From Promethearchaeota archaeon (GTDB lineage Archaea > Asgardarchaeota > Lokiarchaeia > Sigyniarchaeales > SOKP01), in contig JALGVJ010000020.1 in assembly GCA_029838195.1 (NCBI GenBank), forward strand, positions 1 through 64,000: a DNA stretch of 64,000 nucleotides, in the 5' to 3' direction. A program made the translations under genes and the position numbers. Every line of letters starts with the position of its first letter. Position 1 is the stretch's first letter. Below the pieces are notes generated by a model. It searched no databases and had not been told where the DNA came from. It worked only from the letters and a program-made list of their open reading frames with translations. Below are positions 26,381 through 55,747 of the stretch, in pieces.

Positions 26381-29704
<3,324 letters not shown>

Positions 29705-44180: not shown

Positions 44181-44807
44181 TCATGACTCATTAATTTTTA
44201 TTTCCGTTTTCTCACAGACTAGAATGCGTTTCTTTAAAAATTCTATGATATCTTTATTATCTTGCGCTTCTAAAATACCGCCGCATTCGGGACATCTAAA
44301 ATTGAGCTCATATGCATCATCAAAATTATATTTGATGGTTTTATCTTCGCATTGATTGCAAATGAAAAAATAATTGTTTTCCTCAAAATAAAGCCTATCC
44401 CGTAATTTCATTTCCATTAATTTCTTTTTTTCTTCCAAAATTTCTTCTAATCGGTCAAATTCGTGCCACCAAAAATAGATAAACCACTCCGGAACTCACG
44501 CGAAACACGCAAGCTTTCCCGTAGATTTATCACGAATTCGCCGAAATTGAGCCAATTTTTCTCCGTATAAAGTATATAACGTTTTTCGAACGGTATTTAA
44601 CTTAAGAATCTCATCTTCTTCTTCCGGTTCGAATTTCACTTCTTTCCCGCTTTTTAAAATTCGTTCCTTGATATTTTCCGTGATGTCCTCGTCGGTAATG
44701 TCTTTCCCTTCCGAATTAATCAATTCTAAACCCACTTCAATGGCCACATCTCCACCAATTATGTACAAAAAAGATTCTAAATATTTGTTTAATTGTTTAA
44801 TTGCAAT
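44181..44807 (-). CDS. tfe: Transcription factor E alpha, interrupted by a 30-nt in-frame insertion containing TGA
   Basis: The two track ORFs share one frame: TDEDI..KLNTVRKTLY..RIRDKSTG[KLACFA*VPE]WFIYFW...FFICNQC..FDDAYELNFRCPECGG.L; start probably ATT at 44807. Confidence 0.9.
44487..44516 (-). other. Candidate BHB-type mRNA intron in tfe
   Basis: Hairpin AGCTTGCG/CGTGAGTT flanked by BHB-like elements; removal restores S-T-G-W-F. Confidence 0.7.
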
Positions 44808-44917
44808 AAACCCCTTTTTTATCTTCTTTTATTAACCTAATATAAGGTAGCAAACAAAAATTAAGTTTACTTTTTCTAAAAAAAATAAAGCATGAGGCTA
44901 ATTTTAAAAATAAAAAT

Positions 44918-52543: not shown

Positions 52544-52647
52544 CGGGCTATGGGGGAATCCCATCAAATTCCGTAGTGGAATCTGAAATTGAACCCCCGA
52601 CCGTCAGGTTAAAAGCCTGCTGCGCTACCTGCCTGCGCCAATAGCCC
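52544..52647 (-). tRNA. tRNA-Lys(TTT) with a 30-nt T-loop intron (59/60; 52558-52587)
   Basis: CTTTTAA anticodon loop; TTCA-AT^T-TCAGATTCC...GGAATTTGA-TGGG-AT^T BHB. Confidence 0.93.
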
Positions 52648-55631: not shown

Positions 55632-55747
55632 TGCAGGAGGTGGGATGTTCATTGAGCATCTCTTTGATAGCTCAAATTTGAACCCACGAAGACCTATGTC
55701 ACTAGAGCCTCAGTCTAGCGCCGTAGACCAGGCTTGGCAACTCCTGC
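55632..55747 (-). tRNA. tRNA-Leu(GAG) with a 31-nt T-loop intron (59/60; 55646-55676)
   Basis: CTGAGGC loop, long variable arm; TTCA-AA^T-TTGAGC...GCTCAA-TGAA-CA^T BHB. Confidence 0.93.

What the first reader, a model, noticed from the sequence alone, without database searches (positions are those of the whole stretch)
44478..44531. Candidate BHB-spliced mRNA intron in the basal transcription factor TFE
Seen: the two TFE half-ORFs are in one frame, separated by exactly 10 extra codons (KLACFA*VPE) that include a TGA. They sit inside the conserved winged-helix motif RDKSTG-WFIY. The insert folds into a hairpin (AGCUUGCG/CGUGAGUU) and the flanking exons can pair (GAUAAAUC/GGUUUAUC). One BHB register (central ACGG/CCGG with one A.G mismatch, bulges GA^A and AG^U) excises 30 nt (44487-44516) and gives ACG-GGA-TGG, an intact ~198-aa TFE. 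A second, tidier register (CGGG/UCCG, bulges AA^A and GA^G) would excise 28 nt and frameshift, so the exact junction is uncertain. Established: the archaeal splicing endonuclease EndA cuts BHB motifs, and the well-documented archaeal mRNA intron is in crenarchaeal cbf5. Inference: this intron-rich Asgard-like genome splices the mRNA of a core transcription factor through the tRNA pathway. That would parallel eukaryotic non-spliceosomal HAC1/XBP1 splicing and could be regulatory.
Basis: partly seen in the sequence, partly recalled or inferred. Interest (0 to 1): 0.95.

Follow-up and report, generated by a model that had tools for sequence, protein, structure and literature searches.

The report
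tRNA-type mini-intron splitting the TFE gene
A 30-base insert that breaks the only gene for the basal transcription factor TFE in this Asgard archaeon is almost certainly an intron cut out of the mRNA by the tRNA-splicing enzymes, a kind of splicing the papers I could search report for only one other archaeal protein gene.

Summary
The tfe gene (minus strand) carries exactly 30 extra bases (44487-44516) with an in-frame TGA, between RDKSTG and WFIYFWW.

The insert is real and selected:
- I found it at the same site in 19 records from separate assemblies, giving 13 distinct sequences.
- It comes in two lengths, 30 and 31 nt. The 31-nt form shifts the frame.
- Both exons are under strong purifying selection (dN/dS 0.04-0.13), and this genome has no second tfe copy.
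- The hairpin, and a helix between the last exon-1 codons and the 3' end of the insert, are kept by compensatory changes. The Thr third base pairs with intron base 26 as G-C 6, A-U 4, G-U 2, and is never unpaired.
- The genome encodes three EndA-domain proteins and RtcB.
- tRNAs in the same window carry 30-31-nt introns.

Selenocysteine, read-through, a split gene and a pseudogene are excluded. Codon-matched ribosome hopping is very unlikely.

Only cuts at GGA^...^UGG (or one base upstream at both sites) restore TGW in all 13 variants. The tidier canonical register removes 28 nt and cannot be productive.

No RNA evidence exists. This scan has already noted similar mRNA introns in other genes of this genome and in other Asgard genomes. 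I class it as a new member of a known kind (the cbf5-type intron).

The parts
44517..44828 (-). tfe exon 1 (winged-helix half, ends ...RIRDKSTG). The frame is open from 44828. The start codon is uncertain: ATT at 44801-44799 aligns with the ATG of the same-genus relative, and the first canonical start is TTG at 44768.
   Evidence: Pfam TFIIE_alpha; NF004910 positions 37-84; PDB TFE 6xjf, 6pln.
44487..44516 (-). 30-nt BHB-type intron (mRNA: AAGCUUGCGUGUUUCGCGUGAGUUCCGGAG). Removing it joins GGA to UGG.
44181..44486 (-). tfe exon 2 (WFIYFWW..., zinc ribbon CxxC...CxxC, stop TGA at 44183-44181).
   Evidence: NF004910 positions 85-179; dN/dS 0.06-0.11.
44523..44531 (-). 5' strand of the exon-exon outer helix (GAUAAAUCU, codons D-K-S).
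   Evidence: The Ser third base is C or U in all 13 intron-bearing variants, against 2 of 30 distinct intronless contexts that fit TCY-ACR-GGA.
44478..44485 (-). 3' strand of the outer helix (GGUUUAUC, codons W-F-I).
44519..44522 (-). Exon strand of the central helix in the productive register (ACGG, end of the Thr codon and start of the Gly codon).
   Evidence: C-G 12/12; Thr third base with intron base 26 G-C 6, A-U 4, G-U 2; G-C 11/12; outermost A.G 11, A-U 1.
44489..44492 (-). Intron strand of the central helix (CCGG, intron bases 25-28).
44516..44518 (-). 5' bulge G-A-A. The inferred cut lies after the second base, between 44517 and 44516.
   Evidence: Inferred from frame restoration in all 13 variants. 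The cut rule was checked on tRNA-Gln and on two tRNAs of this window.
44486..44488 (-). 3' bulge A-G-U. The inferred cut lies between 44487 and 44486. In the 31-nt class this bulge is C-A-A-U.
44493..44515 (-). Inner intron hairpin (intron bases 2-24: 9 bp and a 3-5-nt loop).
   Evidence: 93.5% of cells paired, and 4 of 9 pairs show changes on both sides.
44496..44498 (-). In-frame TGA inside the intron (intron bases 19-21).
   Evidence: All variants tabulated carry an in-frame stop: TGA 3, TAA 7, TAG 2.

Best explanation
The 30 nt at 44487-44516 are a bulge-helix-bulge (BHB) intron in the tfe pre-mRNA. The last codons of exon 1 (..UCU ACG GGA) pair with the 3' end of the intron (CCGG). The intron interior forms a 9-bp hairpin. 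The exons pair with each other (GAUAAAUC/GGUUUAUC). The archaeal splicing endonuclease EndA, probably hetero-oligomeric here, cuts in the two bulges. RtcB then joins GGA to UGG, giving a roughly 196-aa TFE with the invariant wing RDKSTGWFIY. Unspliced mRNA ends at the intron's stop codon.

Shown: the insert is exactly surplus, conserved in position, kept as an RNA structure by compensatory changes, and sits in a selected single-copy gene. The enzymes are encoded, and introns of the same size occur in this genome's tRNAs.

Inferred: the cleavage and ligation themselves, and the cut positions. GGA^A...G^UGG is most likely; GG^A...A^G UGG is not excluded and gives the same protein.
For: 1. Exactly surplus. 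The TFE profile NF004910 runs 37-84 in exon 1 and 85-179 in exon 2. All intronless relatives read RDKSTGWFIY.

2. Recurrence. There are 13 distinct intron variants in 19 records at the same site, including species representatives G000, G001, G068 and G069.

3. Structure under selection. On 12 aligned variants, 88-92% of cells are paired, against 20-47% when the partners are slid. No shuffle of 500 reaches the observed covariation score. The exon-intron pair is G-C 6, A-U 4, G-U 2. Between the window and L041 the exons differ at dS about 0.45. The intron differs at 2 of 30 bases, and both changes preserve pairs.

4. The gene is functional. dN/dS is 0.04-0.13 in both exons, including exon 2 downstream of the frameshifting 31-nt form. 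G000 has one copy only.

5. Exact excision is required. The 30- and 31-nt classes both give TGW only when the whole insert is removed.

6. Exon codons are constrained. TCY-ACR-GGA occurs in 13 of 13 intron-bearing variants, against 2 of 30 distinct intronless contexts.

7. Machinery. The genome has two full-length EndA paralogues, one short EndA-domain ORF, and RtcB. Asgard EndA is reported as (alpha-beta)2 with the L1 loop that goes with broad specificity (PMC5829648).

8. Same-size introns in the same window. tRNA-Leu(GAG) has a 31-nt and tRNA-Lys(UUU) a 30-nt T-loop intron, which become valid tRNAs after canonical BHB excision. Further mRNA introns occur in rnhB, elp3 and moxR of this genome. 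The rnhB one has the same relaxed type of central helix, C.A plus 3 G-C.

9. cbf5 pre-mRNA introns also frequently use relaxed motifs with hetero-oligomeric EndA (PMC2738675).
Against: - No RNA read, circular intron or peptide shows the splice.
- The thermodynamically best, fully canonical BHB (central CGGG/UCCG, bulges AAA and GAG) predicts a 28-nt excision and a frameshift. It is 1.6-2.2 kcal/mol more stable than the productive register in 10 of the 12 variants, 0.3 in L052, and less stable in L051.
- The productive register has an A.G mismatch as the outermost central pair in 11 of 12 variants, and needs a 4-nt 3' bulge in the 31-nt class.
- L051 has a second mismatch (G.A) in the central helix.
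- Support for the productive register over the canonical one rests on few events: pair 2-24 changes A-U to G-C in one lineage pair, and A10-28 becomes A-U once.
Confidence: 0.85

Rival explanations
1. EndA cuts the canonical, more stable BHB (AA^A and GA^G). This removes 28 nt, so most or all spliced mRNA is frameshifted. The gene is then either being inactivated, or needs a further recoding step, or only a minor fraction is productive.
For: The minimum-free-energy fold is the canonical motif. It is more stable in 11 of 12 variants and reaches 97.9% paired cells in its central helix.
Against: A 28-nt excision leaves 2 extra bases in the 30-nt class and 3 in the 31-nt class, so no single rule fits both. 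In L048/L049 it would create GGA-UAA. Exon 2 is under strong purifying selection in the WFIY frame. No slippery site fits a -1 or +2 shift at GGAAGUGG (read directly from the sequence).
Confidence: 0.06
2. The ribosome bypasses the insert (hopping, as in phage T4 gene 60), or reads through it with UGA recoded, for example as selenocysteine. ARAGORN predicts a tRNA-Sec in this genome, and the insert reads CFA-UGA.
For: ARAGORN predicts tRNA-SeC at C3:36948-37040. A hairpin lies next to a GGA codon, and GGA recurs near the 3' end in the 30-nt class.
Against: The stops are TGA, TAA or TAG depending on the lineage. The 31-nt class shifts the frame, so read-through cannot work. Seven of 10 insert codons change amino acid between the window and G001, while the RNA pairs are kept. 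The Cys of CxxU is not conserved. Landing on the downstream GGA would be out of frame, and the 31-nt class has GGC there.
Confidence: 0.03
3. The gene is a pseudogene, or a split gene whose two halves are made as separate polypeptides.
For: Gene callers annotate two ORFs of 83-97 and 75-85 aa.
Against: dN/dS is 0.04-0.13 in both halves across lineages with dS up to saturation. G000 has a single copy. There is no ATG, GTG or TTG between the intron stop and the invariant WFIYFWWHEF, which nevertheless evolves only synonymously. The break would fall inside the wing hairpin of the winged helix.
Confidence: 0.04
4. The insert is an assembly or sequencing artefact.
For: The genome is a metagenome-assembled genome with 94 contigs and 7.9% estimated contamination.
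Against: The same insert, with lineage-specific substitutions, appears in 19 records from different samples and pipelines.
Confidence: 0.01

Closest known systems
BHB intron in the cbf5 pre-mRNA of Crenarchaeota (Aeropyrum, Sulfolobales, Desulfurococcales; Watanabe 2002, Yoshinari 2006, Yokobori 2009 = PMC2738675)
   Same: A short intron inside a protein-coding gene. It is flanked by a bulge-helix-bulge motif that is often relaxed. It occurs in organisms with hetero-oligomeric EndA. Presence and absence vary between close relatives, which points to gain and precise loss. The intron breaks the reading frame.
   Different: The host gene is the basal transcription factor TFE, not a pseudouridine synthase. 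The lineage is Asgard (Promethearchaeota), not Crenarchaeota. The size is fixed at 30-31 nt. A competing canonical register would be out of frame. Splicing is demonstrated for cbf5 but not here. Here it is one of several such introns in one genome.
Archaeal tRNA introns at non-canonical positions, including the heavily interrupted tRNA genes of Asgard archaea (bioRxiv 10.64898/2026.10.13.758758)
   Same: The motif logic is the same, and so is the 30-31-nt size, as in the T-loop introns of tRNA-Lys(UUU) and tRNA-Leu(GAG) in this window. The presumed enzymes are the same.
   Different: The host is an mRNA. The exons must satisfy both the codons and the helix. The excised length must keep the reading frame.
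HAC1/XBP1 unconventional mRNA splicing in eukaryotes
   Same: Non-spliceosomal removal of a short intron from an mRNA for a transcription factor. Cleavage occurs in RNA stem-loops, followed by ligation by a tRNA ligase (RtcB in metazoa).
   Different: The endonuclease there is Ire1, not the tRNA-splicing endonuclease. The motif is two 7-nt loops, not a BHB. That event is a regulated stress switch, and no regulation is shown here. (From my own knowledge, not tested here.)

Membership tests
Archaeal BHB (EndA-type) intron | Two 3-nt bulges on opposite strands, each 3' of its strand of a 4-bp central helix | tested here: inconclusive
   A fully canonical motif exists (CGGG/UCCG, bulges AAA and GAG), but it is out of frame. 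The frame-restoring register has 3 Watson-Crick or wobble pairs plus A.G (A-U in L052) and bulges GAA and AGU. It needs a 4-nt 3' bulge in the 31-nt class. This is the relaxed class accepted for broad-specificity EndA.
Archaeal BHB (EndA-type) intron | Flanking helices: exon-exon (h) and intron-intron (h') | tested here: met
   Outer helix: 8 pairs, 87.5% of cells paired. Inner hairpin: 9 pairs, 93.5% paired, 4 pairs with changes on both sides.
Archaeal BHB (EndA-type) intron | Exon-intron central helix kept by covariation | tested here: met
   Thr codon third base with intron base 26: G-C 6, A-U 4, G-U 2, none unpaired.
Archaeal BHB (EndA-type) intron | Excision restores the functional product | tested here: met
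   Removing the whole 30- or 31-nt insert gives RDKSTGWFIY in all 13 variants. The TFE profile positions 84 and 85 abut at the junction.
Archaeal BHB (EndA-type) intron | Host encodes the splicing endonuclease and RtcB ligase | tested here: met
   PF01974 hits on C1 (202 aa), C8 (199 aa) and C53 (106 aa). RtcB on C23 at 553 bits.
Archaeal BHB (EndA-type) intron | Cleavage by EndA and a spliced junction or circular intron seen in RNA | not testable with these tools
   No transcript data are held. No spliced or intronless copy above 73% identity exists in the protein collection.
Transcription factor E (TFE / TFIIE-alpha) | N-terminal winged helix followed by a zinc ribbon, matching the TFE models | tested here: met
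   Pfam TFIIE_alpha scores 23.1 bits against a cut-off of 22.9 on exon 1, and zinc-ribbon families match exon 2. NF004910 and TIGR00373 match both halves contiguously. The halves score 37.5 and 84.5 bits, each below the 180-bit whole-protein cut-off. PDB TFE chains 6xjf, 6pln and 6kf4 match.
Selenoprotein (UGA = Sec) | Conserved in-frame UGA with a conserved coding context | tested here: not met
   The stop is TAA or TAG in 9 of the 12 tabulated variants. The 31-nt class shifts the frame. The insert codons are not conserved.

The most novel reading that the evidence does not exclude
The two competing BHB registers act as a switch. EndA cutting the more stable canonical fold yields a 28-nt, frameshifted dead-end product, and cutting the slipped fold yields productive TFE mRNA. 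The level of a basal transcription initiation factor would then be set after transcription by the tRNA-splicing machinery, for example by EndA subunit composition, temperature or RNA-binding factors. More broadly, tfe would be one of many mini-introns that make EndA/RtcB mRNA splicing a routine step of gene expression in this Asgard lineage.
Probability: 0.12. Interest if true: 0.92.

Novelty: new member of a known kind. Interest (0 to 1): 0.78.

Why it matters
In the papers I could search, protein-coding genes interrupted by tRNA-type introns are documented in Archaea only for cbf5 of Crenarchaeota. Here the interrupted gene is the single copy of a core transcription initiation factor, in the archaeal group closest to eukaryotes. 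The comparative evidence (13 variants, covariation across the exon-intron boundary, two length classes) is about as strong as sequence alone can give. It means that TFE production depends on EndA and RtcB in these organisms.

Taken with the other mRNA introns of this genome, it suggests that splicing of mRNAs by proteins is common in some Asgard archaea. That bears on how intron-containing genes and their handling arose before the spliceosome.

It also has a practical consequence. Gene callers split or truncate such genes: tfe is annotated as two hypothetical ORFs in public genomes.

The tfe case is also a natural test of how EndA chooses between two overlapping BHB registers.

Tried and rejected
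1. A blind genome-wide scan for BHB motifs whose excision merges two open frames gave thousands of hits with no enrichment near 30 nt. It also missed true cases with weak outer helices, such as elp3. I did not use it.

2. I looked for a spliced or intronless copy of this genus's tfe among longer proteins. None exceeded 73% identity, so there is no transcript-derived evidence either way.

3. L054 (protein P0055) looked like a second intron type. It is a short contig in which unrelated sequence follows RDK. I set it aside as a likely chimera or rearrangement.

4. Selenocysteine or read-through, T4-type hopping, a split gene, a pseudogene and an artefact were each considered and rejected. The reasons are under the rival explanations.

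5. A strict canonical (28-nt) junction, and a mixed model in which the 31-nt class gives TGKW, are rejected by the 30-nt class frame and by the UAA it would create in L048/L049.

6. Cuts one base upstream at both sites (GG^A...^R-UGG) give the same protein and could not be excluded. No BHB drawing supports them well.

7. ARAGORN's own intron calls were too imprecise to serve as benchmarks. I used tRNA-Gln and my own splice-then-ARAGORN test instead.

Full report
**What is there.** The gene lies on the minus strand. Translating 44768-44181 gives one frame with a single stop...RIRDKSTG KLACFA* VPE WFIYFWWHEFDR.... The ten extra codons are 44487-44516. Exon 1 matches Pfam TFIIE_alpha, and exon 2 matches zinc-ribbon families. 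The NCBIfam TFE equivalog NF004910 aligns exon 1 to profile positions 37-84 and exon 2 to 85-179. The insert is therefore exactly surplus, and nothing is missing. PDB TFE chains match up to ...RDxxTG at the exon-1 end. G000, the window's own genome (96.6% complete), has no second tfe copy.

**Is it real and recurrent.** Among 60 relatives, only the same-genus genome G001 has a split frame. It carries a 30-nt insert with a TGA at the same site.

Searching for short TFE fragments in the 5.8-billion protein collection, and fetching their contigs, brought many more. A census of 135 species of the family found 4 of 127 matched genomes split: G000, G001, G068 and G069.

In all there are 19 records and 13 distinct intron sequences, from NCBI genomes, JGI, ENA and Logan assemblies. 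That excludes an assembly artefact. Hundreds of intronless TFEs read RDKSTGWFIY.

**Two length classes.**
- Seven variants have 30 nt: the window, L041/42, L002/35, L050, L051, L052 and L053.
- Six have 31 nt, with an extra C after intron base 28: L043/44 (= G068), L045, L055, L046/47, L048/49 and G069.

The 31-nt form shifts the frame. The 12 variants tabulated each carry an in-frame stop, but of different kinds: TGA 3, TAA 7, TAG 2.

Between the window and G001, 7 of 10 insert codons change amino acid. Between the window and L041, the only two insert changes fall at second codon positions, while the flanking exon changes are all synonymous. The insert is therefore not coding sequence. Selenocysteine or read-through is excluded, even though ARAGORN predicts a tRNA-Sec elsewhere in the genome.

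**The gene is alive.** Pairwise dN/dS is 0.04-0.13 in exon 1 and also in exon 2, at dS of 0.3 up to saturation. This includes pairs within the frameshifting 31-nt class. No canonical start codon lies between the intron stop and the invariant WFIYFWWHEF, which changes only synonymously. So exon 2 is translated as a continuation of exon 1. A pseudogene or a two-polypeptide split gene does not fit.

**The RNA structure is selected.** On an alignment of 12 variants (A1), I counted pairs for both registers.
- 88-92% of cells are paired, against 20-47% when the 3' partners are slid by 1-3 columns.
- No shuffle of 500 reaches the observed percentage paired, covariation score or number of doubly changed cells.
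- The most telling pair joins the third base of the Thr codon in exon 1 to intron base 26: G-C in 6 variants, A-U in 4, G-U in 2, never unpaired. An exon-intron helix of this kind is the hallmark of a BHB central helix.
- The inner hairpin has 4 of 9 pairs with changes on both sides.
- The exon codons next to the intron are restricted to TCY-ACR-GGA in all 13 intron-bearing variants, against 2 of 30 distinct intronless contexts.
- Between the window and L041, exon dS is about 0.45. The intron differs at only 2 of 30 bases, and both changes preserve pairs.

**Which junction.** I checked the EndA rule on this genome's own tRNAs: each bulge lies 3' of its central-helix strand, and the cut comes after the second bulge base.
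- In tRNA-Gln, the bulges are 36-37-i1 and i(n-1)-i(n)-38.
- Two T-loop introns in this window become valid tRNAs after canonical excision: tRNA-Leu(GAG), 31 nt at 55646-55676, and tRNA-Lys(UUU), 30 nt at 52558-52587.

Applied to tfe, the most stable fold is fully canonical: central CGGG/UCCG, bulges AAA and GAG. It predicts a 28-nt excision.
- In the 30-nt class this leaves two extra bases.
- In the 31-nt class it would leave three (TGKW). In L048/L049 those three bases are UAA, although that gene is under purifying selection.

The only cut pair that restores TGW in all 13 variants is GGA^...^UGG, or the same pair shifted one base upstream, which gives GGR-UGG.
- central helix A.G, C-G, R-Y, G-C;
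- 5' bulge G-A-N;
- inner helix starting at intron bases 2-24;
- 3' bulge A-R-U, or C-A-A-U in the 31-nt class.

Two substitutions favour this register. Pair 2-24 changes from A-U to G-C in L050/L051. The A.G becomes A-U in L052. The evidence on register is suggestive, not conclusive. The nearest-neighbour model puts this register 1.6-2.2 kcal/mol above the canonical one.

A relaxed central helix with an outermost mismatch also occurs in the rnhB mRNA intron of this genome (C.A plus three G-C). The elp3 and moxR introns are canonical. The cbf5 literature states that pre-mRNA introns often use relaxed motifs with hetero-oligomeric EndA.

**Machinery.** G000 encodes two full-length EndA paralogues (202 and 199 aa, each with N- and C-terminal domains), a third 106-aa ORF with only the C-terminal domain, and RtcB. 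This fits the (alpha-beta)2 enzyme with the L1 loop reported for Asgard archaea, which goes with broad substrate specificity (PMC5829648).

**Distribution and history.** In a TFE tree with a poorly resolved backbone, the window, L041 and L035 form one clade. The 31-nt class forms another that corresponds to genus g6. There the intronless L016 (G024) nests beside L055 (99/87 support) and uses different Ser and Thr codons (AGC ACT) at the junction. This points to precise loss after a shared gain. Among species representatives, genus g1 has the intron in 2 of 2 and genus g6 in 2 of 9.

**Comparison with what is known.** The papers I could search report archaeal BHB introns in protein-coding genes only for cbf5. 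For Asgard archaea they report only heavily interrupted tRNA genes. Earlier notes of this scan list BHB-like introns in other genes of this genome (dnaG, a 2-oxoacid:ferredoxin oxidoreductase subunit, FprA, an E2 enzyme, MoxR, Elp3, RNase HII) and in regulators of other Asgard genomes. I re-derived three of them from the sequence. The tfe intron is therefore a new member of the cbf5 kind. It is notable for its host gene, its lineage, the strength of the comparative support, and the unresolved competition between two registers.

**Limits.** No RNA or protein data were available. The cut sites are inferred from frame restoration across variants. Related sequences are not independent, so the shuffle statistics overstate significance. 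The register preference rests on few substitutions.

Noticed in passing
window 44769-44828 (minus strand): The tfe frame is open and homologous to TFE N-termini upstream of the first canonical start (TTG at 44768), but has no ATG, GTG or TTG there. ATT at 44801-44799 aligns with the ATG of the same-genus relative. L041/L042, L005, L050 and L053 also have ATT at that position. This suggests an AUU (or AUA) start codon for tfe in several lineages.
   Followed up: partly
window 55646-55676 and 52558-52587 (minus strand): tRNA-Leu(GAG) and tRNA-Lys(UUU) carry 31- and 30-nt introns in the T-loop (junction at tRNA positions 71 and 60 of the spliced gene), with canonical BHB motifs that use the exonic UUCA. 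ARAGORN finds these tRNAs only after in-silico splicing.
   Followed up: yes
G000 C23 (minus strand, rnhB and elp3) and C72 (minus strand, moxR): Three further protein-coding genes of this genome carry 30-31-nt BHB-type inserts. Excising them restores DEAGRGS (RNase HII; relaxed central helix, C.A plus 3 G-C), an Elp3 motif (canonical) and the Walker A GGGKTT of a MoxR ATPase (canonical).
   Followed up: partly
window 26381-29704 (plus strand): The 23S rRNA match spans 3324 nt against a 2987-position model, so about 340 extra bases (introns or expansion segments) lie somewhere inside.
   Followed up: no
L016 (G024), against L055, L043 and L046: An intronless tfe nests inside the clade of 31-nt intron carriers and uses AGC ACT instead of TCC ACR next to the junction. 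This looks like precise intron loss with release, or replacement, of the exon codons that form the BHB.
   Followed up: partly
Intron bases 19-21 in the tfe intron alignment A1: The in-frame stop sits at the same intron position (U-R-A, seventh codon) in 10 of the 12 variants tabulated, across both length classes. It lies inside the 3' arm of the hairpin. It may be selected to end translation of unspliced mRNA.
   Followed up: no
G000 C53:22042-22209 (L058:1495-1812, minus strand): A third, short (106 aa) ORF has only the EndA C-terminal domain (29.4 bits), beside two full-length EndA paralogues on C1 and C8. It may be an extra structural subunit.
   Followed up: partly
G000 C3:36948-37040: ARAGORN predicts a tRNA-Sec (anticodon tca). 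A second, intron-containing prediction lies at C38:47437-47529.
   Followed up: no
L054 (ENA ERZ23495098 scaffold, 852 nt): A tfe N-terminal half runs into unrelated sequence right after RDK, with a duplicated AGGGATAAA. It may be a chimeric contig or a rearrangement at the same hotspot.
   Followed up: partly
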